The notes beneath the pieces were generated by a model. It was given only the letters and a program-made list of their open reading frames with translations. It was not told where the DNA came from and searched no databases. Positions 40,510-61,726 of a stretch of 64,000 nucleotides of DNA are shown piece by piece. Origin of the DNA: a phage; assembly GCA_011911785.1 (NCBI GenBank), contig GCA_011911785.1_4084.1. One strand, given 5' to 3'. Both the position numbers and the translations under genes were made by a program. The first letter of the stretch is position 1, and each line of letters starts with the position of its first letter.

Positions 40510-40851
40510 ATGGATTTAAGCTCAACAATTAATTTTTTGAGTGATAATTACGAAAAGGTCATATCAAGGGGTGGTATTATTATCCACCCTGTAACAAATG
40601 AAATGTTCATGGTTCGCTTTGATGCAAATTCATATGACCAAGTACTTGTAATATCACAATTTATCGATTATAATGAAGTTGTTCAATTTTGCTGTACTGA
40701 ATTCGGAATCTATCTTAAAGATGCGGAAACTAATGAGATTGGTCATTACTTATATCAAACTCTGATGGTTACTCTAGATTTTGGACTTACTTTCGAAAAT
40801 CTGGTACAATGTCACTATATGTTTAAAAACTTTCCCGCGTCTGGGAATTAA
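40510..40851 (+). CDS. hypothetical protein, possibly degenerate family A member
   Basis: Start refined to ATG 40510; C-terminal YLYQTLMVTLDFGLTFENLVQ loosely resembles the family tail. Confidence 0.4.
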   Translation: MDLSSTINFLSDNYEKVISRGGIIIHPVTNEMFMVRFDANSYDQVLVISQFIDYNEVVQFCCTEFGIYLKDAETNEIGHYLYQTLMVTLDFGLTFENLVQCHYMFKNFPASGN

Positions 40852-40861
40852 TGGAGTTCAA

Positions 40862-41704
40862 ATGTCAAACATTATCGTATTCAAAACTGTATCATTCAAT
40901 AAAGATCTTTATTCTCATTCTTATGTGTCTTCCAATAATCTCATCATTGAGTTGACAAATGGGGCAACGTTGGCGGTAGAATTCGATTCTAGTCTTGAAT
41001 CCAACGCTGCACTAAAAGAACTAGCAATGGTATTAAATGGTGAACCAGTAAACAAATCCAAACCAACTGATGGGTTGGATATGTTGGTCAATAAGATCCT
41101 AAATGGCAAATCTTCTGAAATTGTTGAACTTCTTAAAAATTGTACTGATAAAATCACTGAAACTGTTAGTACTGCAAAATCTAAGGCTGAAGATAAGCTT
41201 TATGAAGAAGCATTTAAAGTCGTTGGTGCAGCAGCAGAATCTAAGTTAAATGGTATGATTAATAATCTTGACCAAGTGCTGTCTCATATGTTCACAAAAG
41301 AATATGAAACTGAAGAACCTGAATCCCAAGAACAACCTTCCAAAAAAGAAGATGTAAAATCTAAAGTGAAATCCGCATTTACTGGTGCTAAAAAGAAATT
41401 TGGTCTATCTGAAGATATCTTTGGATATTCTGATACCACAGCACAAACCGACGATGATTCACAGTCAGATGATATTCTGATTGGTGATATGCTTGATCGT
41501 CAGTTGCGTGCTGAAATTTCAGCATTCGTTGACAGTGTTGTTAGTTCTGAACGTGCACAAGATATGTTCGAAAGTATCAGTAAGAATTTTGGTGAAGAAG
41601 AATCGAAAGCTGCTATTGATGGATTTAAAAATCTAATTTATTCCGTTGCAGTGCAGCACCAAGATAAAACATTAGAATATGTGATTCGCAATTACTTTAT
41701 GTAA
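40862..41704 (+). CDS. hypothetical protein (280 aa)
   Basis: Start refined to ATG 40862 (RBS ggagttcaaATG). Confidence 0.55.
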   Translation: MSNIIVFKTVSFNKDLYSHSYVSSNNLIIELTNGATLAVEFDSSLESNAALKELAMVLNGEPVNKSKPTDGLDMLVNKILNGKSSEIVELLKNCTDKITETVSTAKSKAEDKLYEEAFKVVGAAAESKLNGMINNLDQVLSHMFTKEYETEEPESQEQPSKKEDVKSKVKSAFTGAKKKFGLSEDIFGYSDTTAQTDDDSQSDDILIGDMLDRQLRAEISAFVDSVVSSERAQDMFESISKNFGEEESKAAIDGFKNLIYSVAVQHQDKTLEYVIRNYFM

Positions 41705-41712
41705 TGAGAACG

Positions 41713-41741
41713 AAAAAGCCTCCATATGGAGGCTTTTTTTA
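41713..41741. terminator. bidirectional intrinsic terminator
   Basis: Palindrome GCCTCCATATGGAGGC flanked by A-run and T-run, between convergent genes. Confidence 0.75.
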
Positions 41742-42896
41742 TTGTTTGTCATAACCAATCACTACAATCTTAGCATCAAATGCTTCGGCAGAAGTAATTG
41801 TAACATTCTCATCATCATCAAGCTGAATTTCACATTGAACTGCATCATTGTTATTATCATATACTTGAACAAAAACAAATTCTTTTAAGTGTCCAGTACT
41901 GGATATATTAATTTCATACATTTCACCATTGCGTGTCCATTCAGAAGAAGAGACATTTTGTACATATGGAGATGTTTGTAATGTACTACCCAATATACTT
42001 AGTTTTATAGGTGTATTATCATATATTGTTACTGTAATATCACCAGTGGAGCTAACATTAATGCCAGCAGATACCAAATTATTATGATTATCATATACCT
42101 GAATAGCTAAGTTATTACCACGCCCATGTACATCACCAGGGATTCTTGCACTATACACATCACCAGGCCCAGTACTGAATGTAGTTACTGATACAGTAGT
42201 GGTAAAGCCGTCATCATCACCAACATCTAATATATTAAAATTAACGCTTTTTGTATTATAAAAATCAGACGTAAGAGTTATAGTTGCAGTTCCGGTTGAC
42301 ATAATTTCCGGTACTGTTATAATGAATTCATCATTGACTATTGTACTCGTTGAATACTCGGACCCATCTGAAAATTTTACAGTAATTGTCATTCCTGTTG
42401 TGTTGATGGTTTGTCCAGCATTGAACAGTTTACCCGATATTTCAGTATCCCCAACATGAACTGGATTAACTAAAATATTATCTATATCACGATCAATAAT
42501 TGAACAAGTTGGTGTGTACATATCAAAAGTAACATCGGAGTTTCCAAATATCGTTTTGTGTAATTGGAATTTAGTTACAAACCCTGTTGGATCTGTAGGT
42601 TTCAATTGATTAGTGTATCCACGAACAAAGAAAGTATTCTTTGCAATAACATCCAATAATTCATCATCGGATTTTTTATAGTTAAGTAAATTTCCTACCT
42701 TATCATAAGAAGTAATTTGTACGCGTCTATATATTTTGTTTGTTACAGGATCTATAATATCAAATAGTTTATAACTACGCTGTCTGTAAATTCTTATATT
42801 TTTTAATTTGGTTCCATCGATTAGTAAAGCACCATCCACGATATAACCACATTCACCGAACTTGTATTCTCCGGCATCAGCTATGGTTCTAGACAT
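41739..42896 (-). CDS. beta-rich repeat-containing protein (possibly Ig-like / structural or adhesin-like)
   Basis: Only substantial minus-strand ORF (385 aa); S/T/N/V-rich with two C-terminal repeats (VQVYDN...ITVTI). Confidence 0.6.
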   Translation of the reverse strand: MSRTIADAGEYKFGECGYIVDGALLIDGTKLKNIRIYRQRSYKLFDIIDPVTNKIYRRVQITSYDKVGNLLNYKKSDDELLDVIAKNTFFVRGYTNQLKPTDPTGFVTKFQLHKTIFGNSDVTFDMYTPTCSIIDRDIDNILVNPVHVGDTEISGKLFNAGQTINTTGMTITVKFSDGSEYSTSTIVNDEFIITVPEIMSTGTATITLTSDFYNTKSVNFNILDVGDDDGFTTTVSVTTFSTGPGDVYSARIPGDVHGRGNNLAIQVYDNHNNLVSAGINVSSTGDITVTIYDNTPIKLSILGSTLQTSPYVQNVSSSEWTRNGEMYEINISSTGHLKEFVFVQVYDNNNDAVQCEIQLDDDENVTITSAEAFDAKIVVIGYDKQ

Positions 42897-42961
42897 AAAA
42901 CAAACCCCTCATTGTTGAAATGCTTATAAAATATTTATGATAAGGAGGGTGAAAATCGGCC

Positions 42962-42990
42962 TTGACAGACCTGTATTTTTGAGTATAATG
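42962..42990 (+). promoter_or_regulatory. sigma70-like promoter
   Basis: TTGACA, 17 nt, TATAAT. Confidence 0.6.
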
Positions 42991-43017
42991 TACATTAATA
43001 GTGAAAAGGAGTATTTT

Positions 43018-43602
43018 ATGAATGTATTAGAAAATCGTTTAATTGTTAAAAATGGCAAGATGACTGTGAAACTATACTCTGATGAAGCAGATTCTTTCAT
43101 GGCGAAGGCAATCGAAAAGTCTGAGCGATATCAAGTTCTTGCACCTGAAAACAAATCACCTTATGGGTTTAATCACGCTCATAGTCATTTTGTTGGAATG
43201 GTTTGTGAACACGCATCGTTTGTATTGTTCTCTGAAATTGAAGCCAGTACTGGTATTAAGTTAAACATTGATCCAGCATTCCAATGTGATGGACGTGATG
43301 GTGAATGTGACATTAAAGTAAATGGATTGCGTATAGAAGTAAAAGGTATTAAGTATAAATCATGGAAAGACTTTGGTCCATGTGTCAGTACTCGACAATT
43401 GAAAAACATTCAGAAAAAAGCTGATGTTATTCTGTGGGTCTTGTATAATGAGAAAAAACAAGAATTTACGTTTGAGGGATTCAATTATGTAAAAGACATT
43501 AGTTCGATTCCAGTAGTATTAACAGGTGTACCAGGTCGTCCATTAATTGAGAATCACCCAGTTATTAGTATTCTTAAGCCACTACAGGAGCTACCACTAT
43601 GA
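43018..43602 (+). CDS. hypothetical protein, possible PD-(D/E)xK-like nuclease fold
   Basis: Start refined to ATG 43018 (RBS aaaaggagtattttATG); D...ECDIKV...EVKG pattern; weak. Confidence 0.45.
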   Translation: MNVLENRLIVKNGKMTVKLYSDEADSFMAKAIEKSERYQVLAPENKSPYGFNHAHSHFVGMVCEHASFVLFSEIEASTGIKLNIDPAFQCDGRDGECDIKVNGLRIEVKGIKYKSWKDFGPCVSTRQLKNIQKKADVILWVLYNEKKQEFTFEGFNYVKDISSIPVVLTGVPGRPLIENHPVISILKPLQELPL

Positions 43603-43838
43603 TTAAATGTAATATTGAAGTAAATGAATACACTACTAATCAATATAACGGTGAGAAAGAGTTTTCATTTAGTACAGTACAACATGTATTGAATTTCCCA
43701 GTACTTCCATCTATTGGTTCAGTACTGACAATCACAAATACGTATGATACCCAGTACGAGATCCTTGATATTGAGTACAGAGCAAATCTTAGTTCCAGTG
43801 CAGATGTTGAAATCTATATCATCGTAGAAGAGGTATAA
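43599..43838 (+). CDS. hypothetical protein (79 aa)
   Basis: ATGA overlap. Confidence 0.5.
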   Translation: MIKCNIEVNEYTTNQYNGEKEFSFSTVQHVLNFPVLPSIGSVLTITNTYDTQYEILDIEYRANLSSSADVEIYIIVEEV

Positions 43839-44164
43839 TGATGTTCAAGAACTTCATTGCTATAGTAGCAGTACTATTCTTAACTACGTGCTTCATCAAT
43901 CCAGTTTATGCTGATAAAGTGCGATGGAAGGATGTTAAATCACCATCCTATTGTGCTGGTTATGCTAAGGTAAAGGATGAACAACACAATAAGCAGTACT
44001 ATAAGGATATGTTTTCATTTTACAATTCAATGATTTCAGAAACTGACTTGATGGCAAAGAGAGTTGATCGTGAAGATTTCCTTCAAGGCTATGACATGAA
44101 TGATGATGAAAAAACATTAGAATGCGTAGAAGTTTTTAATTACATACGAGGGTTTGATGAATGA
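43838..44164 (+). CDS. putative secreted protein (108 aa)
   Basis: N-terminal signal-peptide-like hydrophobic segment. Confidence 0.5.
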   Translation: MMFKNFIAIVAVLFLTTCFINPVYADKVRWKDVKSPSYCAGYAKVKDEQHNKQYYKDMFSFYNSMISETDLMAKRVDREDFLQGYDMNDDEKTLECVEVFNYIRGFDE

Positions 44165-44625
44165 CAGCACTGATATGTATTAGTCTATTTGTTATTGTAT
44201 ATCAATTGATTTTTTCTATCATTGATGATGTTGAACATATTGCATATAGTAAATCTATATCTAAGTTTGAGGGCAATCTTGCTTTTTTTAAATCATTATT
44301 TTGGACATATTTGTTACCCAAAGAATTTTTAGTTGTGTCTTCATATTATTCATCATATAATCTAAACTATAGTATTAGTGATTTAGCAAACATTGAACTG
44401 GTTTGTCGAAATGCTATTAACAATGTTAATGGATACAAAGTTGTGATGAAAAATCCAGGGGTGATCCATTTTATAGAACCAGGTAACAGCAGTTCTGAAC
44501 TAAAACTTAGTGATATGTATCTTTCATATAACTCAATGGAAAGATTCGTTTTACCACCGTACTATATTCGTTTGATCCTAAAAGCACTACAAAATAAAAC
44601 TACAGATGTTCTTGACAGGCTATAG
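44161..44625 (+). CDS. membrane protein (154 aa)
   Basis: N-terminal hydrophobic helix. Confidence 0.5.
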   Translation: MTALICISLFVIVYQLIFSIIDDVEHIAYSKSISKFEGNLAFFKSLFWTYLLPKEFLVVSSYYSSYNLNYSISDLANIELVCRNAINNVNGYKVVMKNPGVIHFIEPGNSSSELKLSDMYLSYNSMERFVLPPYYIRLILKALQNKTTDVLDRL

Positions 44626-44640
44626 GTGAAGTGATAAGAT
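44612..44640 (+). promoter_or_regulatory. sigma70-like promoter
   Basis: TTGACA, 17 nt, TAAGAT. Confidence 0.45.
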
Positions 44641-44689
44641 AGTACCAATGAAACACAACACTAATTTATAATCTAATGAGGAACCAATC

Positions 44690-45148
44690 ATGACAGTATT
44701 AGCTACCCAATTTAAACGAAATACAGAGCAACGTGAAGGTTACTTGAGTATCAGTGAAGTGGTTGAAGGAAACTTCAAACAATACATTTTCAATGCTTCT
44801 ATTAAATTAAAAGCGACAAAATCTGATAAAGATCGTGGCTTTACTAAGTGGGTGGCTTACTGGGAAGATTCACCTGTTGCAATTGAAATGACAGTAATGA
44901 CAACAGTACTGGAAACTGGATACATTAAAGCGACCATTGTAGATAAACAAGTACGAACCATTGATGAGATTGGTCCTTACCCAGCACGAAATTCTAAAGT
45001 ATTTGGTAACTTGATTGATGGTAAGTTTATGTTGGATAAAGATGCACAAGTTTATGTGATGGATAAGGTAGAAAAAGCGGCAGCTAAAAAAGAAGTTGTA
45101 AATCAAAGTCAAATTGACTTAATCAAACAAGCATGGGGTTTAAAATGA
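44690..45148 (+). CDS. hypothetical protein (152 aa)
   Basis: RBS aatgaggaaccaatcATG. Confidence 0.6.
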   Translation: MTVLATQFKRNTEQREGYLSISEVVEGNFKQYIFNASIKLKATKSDKDRGFTKWVAYWEDSPVAIEMTVMTTVLETGYIKATIVDKQVRTIDEIGPYPARNSKVFGNLIDGKFMLDKDAQVYVMDKVEKAAAKKEVVNQSQIDLIKQAWGLK

Positions 45149-59880: not shown

Positions 59881-60104
59881 TGAAAAGGTATAAAATTGAA
59901 TACCTACTTAAAGTAAGAGAGAAAAGTATTAGTAGTGAGAAATACACCAGTGAGATATTCGTCAGAGATGAGTATTACATTGGTGAAAATGAAGTTGAAG
60001 TACTGTTACAATGCATAGAAAATGAATTTCGAGATATGACACGTTATATGTCATTTGAGATATCGTGTGCAAAAGTTACATTCTTGAACAATACTTCATA
60101 TTAA
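59877..60104 (+). CDS. hypothetical protein (75 aa)
   Basis: ATGA overlap. Confidence 0.5.
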   Translation: MMKRYKIEYLLKVREKSISSEKYTSEIFVRDEYYIGENEVEVLLQCIENEFRDMTRYMSFEISCAKVTFLNNTSY

Positions 60105-60108
60105 AAAA

Positions 60109-60140
60109 GGGTTGACTTTTGTTGACCCTTTTTGCTATTC
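60109..60140 (+). promoter_or_regulatory. composite terminator-promoter module
   Basis: Hairpin GGGTTGAC-TTTT-GTTGACCC then TTTTT; TTGACT in 5' arm; TATTCT/TATAAA -10 candidates. Confidence 0.6.
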
Positions 60141-60187
60141 TATAAATATGACATAGAGGTAACATTTAATAATCTATGGAGAAAAAA

Positions 60188-61726
60188 ATGCCAGATAATT
60201 TTAAATCAAAAAGTGGGGCAACACTTTCTGGACATTCGGAGAAATGGGCTGAAAAAAATCGTCGCCAATCAAGTCATGACGCAGGTCAAGGTTCCCGTGG
60301 CTCTCGCAACCAAGGAACGGGAGAAGCGGGGAAAGCAAACACAGTTGCATCACAGGGTCTTGATACTTCAAACATGTCCCAGCATGAAAAATTGAAGTAC
60401 TTCAATAGTCTTGGTCTTTTAAATCCGCAGCAGAAGCAACAACTTGCTGCTCTGGATAAAGCACAAGAACAACCTAAAGCAGCACCTGAAGCACCTGCAC
60501 AGCCTAAAGCGGCTAATCCGGTAAAAGAACTAAGTGATAAACTTGGGAAGATCTTTGCTAACAAACCACAACTAATTCAAGGTATCGTAAAAGCACTTCA
60601 AGCGGTTCCTAAAGAACAACTCAAGGATAAAGCACAAGCTGTTCTTGATAGTATGAAAGGGAATACCAGTACTGAACCAACTGAAGTATTCAGTACTATC
60701 ATGCGTGCACTTGAAGGTAAGCCACAGGCTGATGATGATATTGAGTTTGATGAACCTGCACAAGAAGTAGCAAATCTTGACTCAATCGTTTCTACATTTG
60801 GAAAAATTGGTGCAGAAGATAAGACTAATGCACAACAAGTTAAGAATGTACAAGCTAAGTTACAAAATCGTCTTGAAGGTAAAGATGAAAAGATTAAACT
60901 TGCAGCAGATGCGTTGAAGAAAGCATTAGAATCATATAAACCTGGTGAGAAATCTCGCTTCATTACTGCAATGAATGCAGTATTCGGTGCAATGAAGAAG
61001 TATGAAGCTGAACACGGTGAGAAAGTAACTCCTGATGGATATCTCCTTCGCAAAGATGAAGAAGGTGCTGTTGACCAGAAGAACGCTGAACCAGACTATA
61101 GTGATTTACCGGATACAGTTGATATGGATGGATACATTCATCGTCCTGATATGCAAGAATTTGGTTCAGACAAAGAAGGTTTTGAACATGCTATGGCTGT
61201 GTACAAAGCATTAGTCGATAATCCACAATATGCAAATAGTTTTGTAGATGAGTTTGATAGTGCATGGAACAACTACCAAGACAAAGGATATGATTTCCCA
61301 GCAGAAGCAGCATTCTTTGAACTAGGTAAACTTCTTGCTAAAAATGGTATTAATGTTGGTTCTAATGGTGAAGCAAACACTTCGGAAATGGACGCTGAAT
61401 TGGCTAAAGATCGTAAAATGACTGATAAGTCAATTCATGAACTACAAAAGCTAATGATGTGGATTGCTGAAATTGGCAAGAAAGCTGGTGCAGATCCTAA
61501 GAGCATTAACAGCAATATTAGTTGGATTAAACATAAGGTTGATAACAATGCCCGTAAATTACAAAAGGCATGGACCGACCTAGTGAATGGTGCAGACGAT
61601 GTTGATATCGATTCACCAGAAGCATACGAGTACGCATTGAACACACTTGATAACTCTTTCCAGGATTACGAAAATGGTAACGTAACTGATTGGGAAAAGG
61701 ATATCATGCATAAGTACGGTAAATGA
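60188..61726 (+). CDS. large low-complexity K/E/A/Q-rich protein (about 512 aa)
   Basis: Start taken as ATG 60188 (RBS ggagaaaaaaATG); Gly/Ser/Gln-rich N-terminus, PKAAPEAPAQPKAANP repeat-like stretch; locally higher GC. Confidence 0.6.
   Translation: MPDNFKSKSGATLSGHSEKWAEKNRRQSSHDAGQGSRGSRNQGTGEAGKANTVASQGLDTSNMSQHEKLKYFNSLGLLNPQQKQQLAALDKAQEQPKAAPEAPAQPKAANPVKELSDKLGKIFANKPQLIQGIVKALQAVPKEQLKDKAQAVLDSMKGNTSTEPTEVFSTIMRALEGKPQADDDIEFDEPAQEVANLDSIVSTFGKIGAEDKTNAQQVKNVQAKLQNRLEGKDEKIKLAADALKKALESYKPGEKSRFITAMNAVFGAMKKYEAEHGEKVTPDGYLLRKDEEGAVDQKNAEPDYSDLPDTVDMDGYIHRPDMQEFGSDKEGFEHAMAVYKALVDNPQYANSFVDEFDSAWNNYQDKGYDFPAEAAFFELGKLLAKNGINVGSNGEANTSEMDAELAKDRKMTDKSIHELQKLMMWIAEIGKKAGADPKSINSNISWIKHKVDNNARKLQKAWTDLVNGADDVDIDSPEAYEYALNTLDNSFQDYENGNVTDWEKDIMHKYGK

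What the first reader, a model, noticed from the sequence alone, without database searches (positions are those of the whole stretch)
41713..43602. Lone minus-strand gene forming an orientation-inverted island
The only convincing minus-strand gene (385 aa, beta-rich, with two C-terminal repeats) is bounded by a bidirectional terminator and a divergent promoter region. Downstream on the + strand is a protein with a weak PD-(D/E)xK-like pattern. The inverted orientation and insulation suggest an acquired accessory module, possibly a structural or adhesin-like protein.
Basis: partly seen in the sequence, partly recalled or inferred. Interest (0 to 1): 0.5.

Follow-up and report, generated by a model that had tools for sequence, protein, structure and literature searches.

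The report
Conserved late virion-decoration gene, inverted
The lone reverse-strand gene is an already annotated virion surface protein of a jumbo E. coli phage, made late in infection from its own promoter inside a block of early genes; it is an old, conserved feature of this phage group rather than a recent acquisition.

Summary
41739-42896 (-) is the only free-standing minus-strand ORF in the window. It lies between a strong two-way terminator hairpin and a back-to-back promoter region.

The window is Escherichia phage A4 (Asteriusvirus, 355 kb), and the gene is A4_168, annotated 'structural protein'. Its orthologs were found in purified virions by mass spectrometry (phAPEC6 gp077, CBB_496).

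The same gene sits in the same inverted position between the same neighbours in at least four genera. RaK2-type phages are a clean empty site, with terminator and sigma-70 promoter directly adjacent. The roughly 1.2 kb promoter-plus-gene cassette is therefore an old gain or, somewhat more likely, a RaK2-lineage loss.

A T4-type late-promoter core (TAAATA, 41 nt before the ATG) is invariant in nine orthologous loci. The flanking plus-strand genes lack it and use dense sigma-70 promoters.

The predicted protein is all-beta. A conserved N-terminal module is shared with other virion proteins that carry strings of Ig-like domains; three beta-sandwich domains follow, and the last two are repeats of each other.

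Best reading: a dispensable, late-expressed surface decoration protein. Where it sits on the virion is unresolved. Ordinary and largely known.

The parts
41739..42896 (-). Gene for a 385-aa (42.6 kDa, pI 4.6) virion structural protein, A4_168 of phage A4
   Evidence: ORF. The window is 99.5% identical to ON286972, where this gene is annotated 'structural protein'. PHROG 10468 E = 5e-125. Orthologs detected in virions by MS.
42537..42896 (-). Codons 1-120: conserved N-terminal module, a small beta-barrel and the putative virion-attachment domain
42213..42491 (-). Codons 136-228: first Ig-like beta-sandwich domain
   Evidence: AlphaFold2 pLDDT about 84-94. Foldseek hits to tandem Ig/FN3 arrays. 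Weak NCBIfam Ca_tandemer adhesin repeat, E = 5e-4, below cutoff. PF13620 precomputed for two homologs.
41742..42212 (-). Codons 229-385: two tandem repeated beta-sandwich domains, the most divergent part
   Evidence: Internal repeat, 27% identity, E = 3e-8; DNA repeat D3. 34-39% identity to genus-mates. Paralogous to A4_570 in the tail-fibre cluster, 30% identity, E = 1e-17.
42932..42939 (-). T4-type late-promoter core, CATAAATA on the minus strand; TAAATA starts 41 nt before the ATG
   Evidence: TAAATA is invariant at a fixed distance in 9 orthologous loci. The motif at -46..-25 occurs for 0/34 neighbouring early-region genes, 15/39 plus-strand structural genes and 19/40 minus-strand genes, with background about 0.005. 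The CBB paper lists late promoter Porf_496 for the ortholog.
42905..42910 (-). Ribosome-binding site GAGGGG, 8 nt before the ATG
   Evidence: Read from the sequence. A conserved GGAG-type block is present in alignment A2.
41712..41739 (.). Two-way intrinsic terminator shared by the convergent genes
   Evidence: Scored on both strands. -17.7 and -16.3 kcal/mol. Conserved in position with different stems in the 121Q group and 7t3. Present with the same stem at the RaK2 empty site.
42962..42989 (+). Perfect sigma-70 promoter (TTGACA-16-TATAAT) driving the downstream early genes
   Evidence: Conserved in orthologous loci and in RaK2. One of 40 plus-strand sites scoring at least 11/12 in the window, against 0 on the minus strand.
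43018..43602 (+). Divergent neighbour: highly conserved 194-aa protein with a PD-(D/E)xK-like motif
   Evidence: PHROG 16175 E = 6e-114. Invariant E64, D98, E107-x-K109 and Q127. 87-89% identical within the genus, 64-70% across genera. Only a weak Pfam NOV_C hit.
40862..41704 (+). Convergent neighbour: acidic 280-aa virion protein (A4_167) that ends at the same terminator
   Evidence: PHROG 14991 'virion structural protein' E = 2e-51. Orthologs phAPEC6 gp078c (4 peptides) and CBB_494 (1 peptide) found by MS; RaK2 ORF233 is annotated a virion structural protein.

Best explanation
The gene encodes a late-expressed, probably dispensable virion surface (decoration) protein of a RaK2-like jumbo phage. 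It is an old, conserved resident of the early-gene region.

How it most likely works:
1. Early in infection, host RNA polymerase transcribes the plus strand from many sigma-70 promoters. It stops at the hairpin at 41712-41739 and restarts at the promoter at 42962.
2. The inverted gene sits in the gap between that terminator and that promoter, where no early transcription is expected.
3. Late in infection, the phage's gp55-like late sigma factor uses the T4-type core CATAAATA (42932-42939) to transcribe the minus strand through the gene.
4. The same hairpin, read in the other direction, stops this transcript before it runs antisense into the upstream genes.
5. In the protein, the conserved N-terminal ~120-residue module attaches it to the particle. 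Three beta-sandwich domains project outward, and the distal pair evolves fastest. This resembles other Ig-like decorations that give weak, accessory adhesion.

Shown: the gene, its conservation and synteny, the motifs, the fold class and the shared N-terminal module.
Shown for orthologs only, from the literature: presence in virions.
Inferred: late timing, the function of the terminator and promoters, the anchor role of the N-terminal module, the position on the virion, and any adhesive function.
For: Identity and virion association.

Conservation: the same inverted position in eight other loci from at least four lineages, and 61 records with a full-length homolog.

Late promoter:
- TAAATA is invariant in nine loci.
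- It is strongly associated with virion and minus-strand genes genome-wide (19/40 and 15/39) and absent from 34 neighbouring early genes.
- The window's only other correctly placed motif (60141, +) precedes another virion protein.
- The CBB authors independently predicted a late promoter for the ortholog.
- A 'sigma factor for late transcription' is annotated in A4.

Early region: 40 plus-strand against 0 minus-strand sigma-70 sites scoring at least 11/12.

Terminator.

Insulated gap: at the RaK2 empty site the same terminator and promoter are adjacent.

Fold.

Anchor module plus Ig strings:
- A4_464 has the module plus seven Big_2 domains, and A4_463 is the module alone.
- RaK2 gp039 carries it.
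- Among 66 representative proteins the module is N-terminal in almost all.
- 8 of 10 sampled proteins carry Ig-like strings.

Base-to-tip divergence gradient, 66% then 56% then 39%.

Dispensability is suggested by the gene's absence from RaK2-type phages.
Against: - There are no expression data for any of these phages, so late timing rests on a motif.
- The core here is CATAAATA rather than the T4 consensus TATAAATA. Only about half of virion genes carry the motif at this distance.
- The position on the virion is unknown. MS shows presence, not location or copy number.
- The C-terminal pair is shared with a protein in the tail-fibre cluster, which also fits a fibre-associated role.
- In A4 a perfect plus-strand sigma-70 promoter lies inside the gene (42296-42323). 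If it is active, the gap is not transcriptionally silent early in this phage.
Confidence: 0.7

Rival explanations
1. It is a component of the tail-fibre or host-recognition apparatus. The N-terminal module would dock on the baseplate or fibre network, and the variable C-terminal domains would bind the host surface, as in a receptor-binding protein or adaptor, rather than acting as a passive decoration.
For: - The C-terminal domain pair is paralogous to A4_570, which lies between the long tail fibre proximal subunit and a colanic-acid-degrading tail protein.
- There is a weak PHROG 1162 'tail fiber protein' hit to residues 274-385, E = 0.003.
- The C-terminal end is the most divergent part, as in receptor-binding proteins.
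- The fHe-Yen9-04 annotators called the ortholog a 'possible surface protein responsible for cell interaction'.
Against: - The gene is far from the tail-fibre cluster and is absent from RaK2-type phages, which keep the rest of the locus.
- The model shows no trimeric fibre, beta-helix or enzymatic fold, only beads-on-a-string Ig-like domains.
- The N-terminal module is shared with proteins carrying up to seven Big_2 domains, which is typical of decorations.
- A4's copy is no more divergent than its neighbouring genes.
Confidence: 0.2
2. It is an acquired accessory (moron-like) cassette, the first reader's view: a self-contained promoter-gene-terminator unit inserted by horizontal transfer into the early region.
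For: - RaK2, K64-1 and other Alcyoneusvirus phages have an exact empty site, with terminator and sigma-70 promoter adjacent and no inverted gene.
- The gene has its own promoter of a different class from its neighbours.
- The NJ tree of the 194-aa neighbour, rooted on an outgroup, places RaK2 basal. That would fit a single ancient gain.
Against: - The gene is present at the same site and in the same orientation in every Asteriusvirus, Mimasvirus, Eneladusvirus and 7t3/Munch-type genome examined.
- RaK2 is closest to Asteriusvirus by pairwise identity for both flanking genes, and is its sister in the midpoint-rooted A4_167 tree. That favours a loss in RaK2.
- There is no compositional or codon anomaly and there are no flanking repeats.
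- The terminator pre-exists at the empty site, so it is not part of the cassette.
- Both modules of the protein have paralogs in the same genomes, which points to intragenomic duplication and shuffling rather than import.
- Homologs were found only in these jumbo phages or in contigs of matching size.
Confidence: 0.1

Closest known systems
phAPEC6 gp077, 121Q gp155 and CBB_496 (PHROG 10468, 'virion structural protein' of RaK2-like jumbo phages)
   Same: These are orthologs. They are full length at 36-53% identity, of the same size, in the same inverted position between the same neighbours, and carry the same late-promoter core. gp077 and CBB_496 were detected in virions by ESI-MS/MS. 121Q gp155 is annotated 'structural protein, Ig-domain'.
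   Different: A4's copy is a divergent allele, at about 52% identity to other Asteriusvirus copies and only 34-39% in the C-terminal pair. No ortholog has an assigned position on the virion or a tested function.
T4 Hoc and T5 pb10 (Ig-like capsid decoration proteins bound at hexamer centres). This comparison rests on my own knowledge of those proteins
   Same: The design is the same: one attachment domain plus Ig-like domains that project from the particle. The size is similar to Hoc (about 40 kDa, four domains). It is non-essential, as suggested here by the gene's absence from RaK2. It is late-expressed. pb10, like this protein, has its attachment domain at the N-terminus.
   Different: No sequence or fold match to Hoc or pb10 was found. 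The attachment module is an unrelated small beta-barrel. Capsid location is not shown. The phAPEC6 hexamer-centre fibres are unassigned.
T4-type late genes, read from gp55-dependent TATAAATA promoters and often on the strand opposite to early genes
   Same: A TAAATA core sits about 30-45 nt before the start codon of virion genes. A gp55-like late sigma factor is annotated in A4 and CBB. In the parts of the A4 record I read, about three quarters of minus-strand genes are virion genes.
   Different: The first base is C rather than T here. No gp33 or gp45 homologs were reported for CBB. No transcript mapping exists. Late-motif genes also occur on the plus strand, for example at window 60141, so the inversion is not obligatory.
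Anchor-plus-Big_2 paralogs in the same phages (A4_464, A4_463, RaK2 gp039 'major tail protein', CBB_112)
   Same: They share the N-terminal module at 30-38% identity, carry Ig-like extensions, and are late-motif minus-strand genes that form small inverted islets.
   Different: Their extensions are canonical Pfam Big_2 domains, one to seven of them. A4_168's three beta-sandwich domains match no Pfam family above threshold. They also sit at a different locus.

Membership tests
PHROG 10468 / gp077-CBB_496 virion structural protein family | Full-length profile match | tested here: met
   E = 5.4e-125, residues 1-382 on profile positions 1-383 of 384. Full-length tblastn hits in 61 records.
PHROG 10468 / gp077-CBB_496 virion structural protein family | Conserved genomic position: inverted, between the A4_167-like and 194-aa genes | tested here: met
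   The same arrangement is seen in eight other loci.
PHROG 10468 / gp077-CBB_496 virion structural protein family | Physical presence in the virion | not testable with these tools
   Shown by MS for orthologs only: phAPEC6 gp077 with 10 peptides, CBB_496 with 4. No proteome for A4 was found.
T4-type late gene | TATAAATA-like core at promoter distance upstream of the gene | tested here: met
   CATAAATA at 42932-42939 (7 of 8). TAAATA is invariant in 9 loci. The motif is enriched at -46..-25 for virion genes, with 0/34 for neighbouring early genes.
T4-type late gene | Phage-encoded gp55-like late sigma factor | not tested
   I relied on annotation: A4_588 'sigma factor for late transcription' and CBB_244 as reported in PMC5259590. 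I did not verify the homology.
T4-type late gene | Transcript appears late and starts at the motif | not testable with these tools
   No transcriptome was found.
Hoc/pb10-type Ig-like capsid decoration protein | Ig-like domains exposed on the particle | tested here: inconclusive
   Three confident beta-sandwich domains with tandem Ig/FN3 fold matches. Exposure on the particle is not shown.
Hoc/pb10-type Ig-like capsid decoration protein | Homology of the capsid-binding domain to Hoc or pb10 | tested here: not met
Hoc/pb10-type Ig-like capsid decoration protein | Binding at capsid hexamer centres | not testable with these tools
   phAPEC6 has unassigned hexamer-centre fibres. Nothing links them to this protein.
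Acquired accessory (moron-like) island | Patchy presence among close relatives | tested here: not met
   Present in all Asteriusvirus and three further lineages examined. Absent only from Alcyoneusvirus.
Acquired accessory (moron-like) island | Foreign composition, or flanking repeats or mobility genes | tested here: not met
   GC 0.327 against 0.349 +/- 0.022, and codon-usage distance within range. No boundary repeats. No mobility gene adjacent.
PD-(D/E)xK nuclease (the neighbouring 194-aa protein) | Catalytic E...D...(D/E)xK constellation | tested here: met
   E64, D98, E107-V-K109 and Q127 are invariant in 8 orthologs.
PD-(D/E)xK nuclease (the neighbouring 194-aa protein) | Significant profile or fold match to a known PD-(D/E)xK family | tested here: inconclusive
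   Only PF13020 NOV_C, in 3 of 8 orthologs, best E = 0.022. Nothing in PDB, NCBIfam or PADLOC.

The most novel reading that the evidence does not exclude
The family defined by the shared N-terminal module (A4_168, A4_464 with seven Big_2 domains, and A4_463) makes up the so far unassigned flexible fibres. These are the fibres seen anchored at the centre of every capsid hexamer, or the 'hairy' appendages on the tail, of phAPEC6 and CBB. On this reading the N-terminal module is a previously undescribed virion-docking domain. The A4_168 cassette is present in the two phages documented as hairy (phAPEC6, CBB) and absent from RaK2, for which hairs have not been described, so it would be one determinant of that morphology.
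Probability: 0.2. Interest if true: 0.45.

Novelty: already known. Interest (0 to 1): 0.2.

Why it matters
It matters little beyond this phage group. The gene is already annotated as a structural protein, and its orthologs are proteomically confirmed.

The useful by-products are:
1. A clear, conserved example of a single late gene housed in the terminator-to-promoter gap of an early operon array.
2. Delineation of a small family of virion proteins that share an N-terminal module fused to variable Ig-like strings. This gives concrete candidates for the unassigned capsid and tail fibres of the 'hairy' jumbo phages.
3. An exact empty site in RaK2 that marks the gene as dispensable, and therefore a possible site for display or engineering in therapeutic jumbo phages.

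Tried and rejected
1. I suspected the A4 copy was unusually fast-evolving or had been swapped in, because megablast aligned only the neighbouring gene. Rejected: at about 52% identity it lies within the 27-89% range of its neighbours. A4 is simply a divergent genus member.
2. I considered the perfect antisense sigma-70 promoter inside the gene (42296-42323) as a conserved regulator. It is absent at that position in eight orthologs, so it is kept only as a side note.
3. Pfam, NCBIfam and PADLOC gave nothing above threshold for the 385-aa protein. A PDB profile search gave nothing.
5. There is no compositional anomaly, there are no flanking repeats, and there is no paralog inside the window.
6. 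Rooting gain against loss was inconclusive. Two single-gene NJ trees disagree on where RaK2 falls.
7. The literature held no assignment of this protein or of the hairy fibres and no paper with an A4 virion proteome.
8. My assumed fixed offset between the window and the A4 record failed at the window's start. The locally assembled genome therefore has an inexact junction. It was used only for paralog finding and for motif statistics at annotated gene starts outside the window.
Full report
**What is there.** The window has a single free-standing minus-strand ORF, 41739-42896 (385 aa). Every other minus-strand ORF of at least 100 aa is nested inside a plus-strand ORF. Its 3' end abuts a perfect 13+13 nt palindrome, AAAAAGCCTCCAT/ATGGAGGCTTTTT (41713-41738). 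The palindrome is flanked by A and T runs and scores as an intrinsic terminator on both strands. It folds at -17.7 kcal/mol on the plus strand and -16.3 kcal/mol on the minus strand, z = -6.3. Its 5' end faces a 121-nt spacer with a perfect plus-strand TTGACA-16-TATAAT (42962-42989). That promoter drives a 194-aa gene whose real start is 43018.

**Which genome.** The region is 99.5% identical to Escherichia phage A4 (ON286972, Asteriusvirus, 355 kb), where the gene is A4_168, 'structural protein'. It matches PHROG 10468 'virion structural protein' over its full length, E = 5e-125. Orthologs were found in purified virions by ESI-MS/MS. phAPEC6 gp077 gave 10 unique peptides and 37.8% coverage (PMC7247149). 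CBB_496 gave 4 peptides and 17.5% coverage (PMC5259590). The convergent neighbour (40862-41704; gp078c, CBB_494, RaK2 ORF233) is also virion-associated in those studies or annotations.

**Conservation.** A tblastn search finds full-length homologs in 61 jumbo-phage records at 36-53% identity. In every locus I opened, the homolog is the single opposite-strand gene between the same two neighbours. These loci were fEgEco12, phAPEC6, 121Q, UE-S1, 7t3, CBB, GAP32 and fHe-Yen9-04. CBB, GAP32 and fHe-Yen9-04 have one extra gene in the interval. Three further checks agree:
- GC content and codon usage fall within the range of the window's own genes.
- No repeats flank the gene.
- Its divergence from genus-mates (about 52%) is unremarkable against neighbours that range from 27 to 89%.

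**An exact empty site.** The 194-aa neighbour is more widespread, at 72 records. In RaK2 (Alcyoneusvirus), the A4_167 ortholog (ORF233) is followed after 141 nt by the 194-aa ortholog (ORF234), with nothing inverted between them. That spacer contains the same terminator, with an identical GCCTCC/GGAGGC stem, directly followed by the same sigma-70 promoter. Two things follow:
- The variable unit is the late promoter plus ribosome-binding site plus gene, about 1.2 kb.
- The terminator belongs to the upstream plus-strand unit and is not part of the cassette.

Single-gene trees do not settle gain against loss. The tree of the 194-aa gene, rooted on an outgroup, puts RaK2 basal on a near-zero branch. 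The midpoint-rooted A4_167 tree puts RaK2 sister to Asteriusvirus, and pairwise identities place RaK2 closest to Asteriusvirus for both genes. I therefore favour a single loss in the RaK2 lineage, without excluding one ancient gain. Either way the gene is evidently dispensable for making a particle of this type.

**Transcription logic.** The window is a dense early region. It has 40 sigma-70-like sites scoring at least 11/12 on the plus strand and none on the minus strand, where about 4 in total are expected by chance. Fourteen are perfect matches, against 0.18 expected. The inverted gene instead carries CATAAATA on its own strand, with TAAATA starting 41 nt before the ATG.

The evidence that this is a genuine late-class signal:
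- In an alignment of nine orthologous upstream regions, TAAATA is invariant at a fixed distance from the ribosome-binding site. The divergent sigma-70 promoter is also conserved.
- Across the A4 genome, TAAATA at -46..-25 occurs before 19 of 40 minus-strand genes and 15 of 39 plus-strand structural genes. It occurs before 0 of 34 plus-strand genes flanking this locus. The background chance is about 0.5% per site.
- The CBB authors derived the same ATAAATA late motif and list 'Porf_496' for the ortholog.
- A late sigma factor is annotated in A4.
- The window's only full plus-strand TATAAATA (60141) precedes another virion structural protein.
- In the parts of the A4 record I read, 42 CDS are on the minus strand, and about three quarters of them are virion components.

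The inferred mechanism is that a late gene sits in the gap where early transcription has already terminated and not yet restarted, and is read in the opposite direction by late-modified polymerase. The shared hairpin then stops it from producing antisense RNA to the upstream genes. None of this timing has been measured.

**The protein.** AlphaFold2, run with a 16-sequence alignment, gives a confident all-beta model (mean pLDDT 82) with four parts:
- a small N-terminal barrel (about residues 17-120);
- an Ig-like domain (about 138-225);
- two further beta-sandwiches (about 230-305 and 310-385), which are repeats of each other.

Foldseek against the PDB returns only tandem Ig/FN3 arrays such as filamin, the Bap BSP domain and S-layer domains. 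There is no solved relative by sequence. The N-terminal module alone gives only weak SH3/Tudor-like matches.

The architecture is informative. The N-terminal module recurs in several places:
- as the standalone A4_463 (124 aa; 31% identity, E = 1e-14);
- at the N-terminus of A4_464, which continues with seven Big_2 domains (Pfam E = 6e-118);
- as the fragment A4_466;
- in RaK2 gp039, which is itself a lone inverted gene.

An exhaustive search of 1.84 billion representative proteins finds only 66 that carry the module. It is N-terminal in almost all of them, and they range from 102 to 1551 aa. Eight of ten sampled proteins continue with Ig-like strings. The C-terminal pair is paralogous to A4_570 in the tail-fibre cluster. 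Identity to genus-mates falls from 66% in the N-terminal module to 56% and then 39% at the tip. This is the pattern expected for a conserved attachment domain carrying exposed, faster-evolving Ig-like domains. It works like Hoc or pb10, but it fails the homology test for membership of either family.

**Where on the virion?** This is unresolved. phAPEC6 cryo-EM shows unassigned flexible fibres at every hexamer centre, and unassigned decoration and 'hairy' fibres on the tail. A 2026 review cites no assignment. This family provides candidates, but the link is speculative. The paralogy with A4_570 keeps a tail-fibre-associated role alive as the main rival.

**The neighbour.** The 194-aa protein is the best-conserved gene in the neighbourhood: 87-89% identical within the genus, 64-70% across genera, and 32% in a Vibrio jumbo phage. 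E64, D98, E107-x-K109 and Q127 are invariant. Profile searches give only a weak NOV_C hit, which from my own knowledge is a PD-(D/E)xK-clan family. PDB, NCBIfam and PADLOC give nothing.

**Verdict.**
- The 'structural or adhesin-like' reading is supported.
- The 'acquired accessory module' reading is not supported, except that the gene forms a discrete cassette gained or lost once in deep time.

This is a known, annotated gene class in a known phage, so interest is low.

Noticed in passing
window 42296-42323 (+), inside the minus-strand gene: A perfect 12/12 sigma-70 promoter with a TG extended -10 lies antisense to the structural gene. It points the same way as the early genes and belongs to the window's population of strong plus-strand promoters. 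It is absent at this position in eight orthologs, so it is specific to the A4 lineage. If active, it would make an early antisense RNA across the 5' half of the late gene and add a second promoter for the downstream genes.
   Followed up: partly
whole window, both strands: There is an extreme strand asymmetry in sigma-70-type promoters. Forty sites score at least 11/12 on the plus strand and none on the minus strand, against about 4 expected in total. Fourteen are perfect matches, against 0.18 expected. Several lie inside ORFs.
   Followed up: partly
window 43018-43602 (+): This 194-aa protein is the most conserved gene of the neighbourhood, found in 72 jumbo-phage records including RaK2 and a Vibrio phage. 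It has an invariant E...D...ExK...Q constellation but no significant family or structure match. It may be an uncharacterised early nuclease.
   Followed up: partly
window 40862-41704 (+): This is an acidic (pI 4.7) 280-aa protein. Its orthologs are found in virions of phAPEC6 and CBB and are annotated as virion proteins in RaK2. Yet it lies on the early strand with no late motif within 90 nt, preceded only by a weak extended -10-like site (TGGTACAAT). How a virion protein is expressed from the early strand is unexplained.
   Followed up: no
window 60100-61726 (+): A terminator hairpin is followed by the window's only full TATAAATA (60141-60148) and then a 516-aa virion structural protein (PHROG 20398, E = 4e-192). 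It is a second late gene embedded in the early region, this time co-oriented with its neighbours.
   Followed up: partly
A4 record ON286972 about 345.9-354.6 kb (L016 10103-18820), outside the window: Seven tandem RCC1-like 'DNA condensation protein' paralogs lie on the minus strand. Each is preceded by a near-identical unit: a hairpin (GCCAGTACT...AGTACTGGC), a T-run, TAAATA, TAGTATAATGAATAAAGGAGG and then the ATG. The terminator, late promoter and ribosome-binding site were evidently duplicated together with each gene.
   Followed up: no
A4 record 91.8-95.0 kb (L011 41813-45020) and RaK2 L019 3001-3639: There is a second small inverted islet, holding A4_463, A4_464, A4_465 and A4_466. Three of the four (A4_463, A4_464 and A4_466) carry the same N-terminal module. 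It lies between dCMP deaminase and protease genes. RaK2 has a single 213-aa member (gp039) as a lone inverted gene in the same neighbourhood.
   Followed up: partly
window start against ON286972: The offset that holds for window 40700-44700 (record 312587-316587) does not hold at window position 1, where only 33 of 113 bases match. The window and the A4 record therefore differ by indels somewhere upstream.
   Followed up: no
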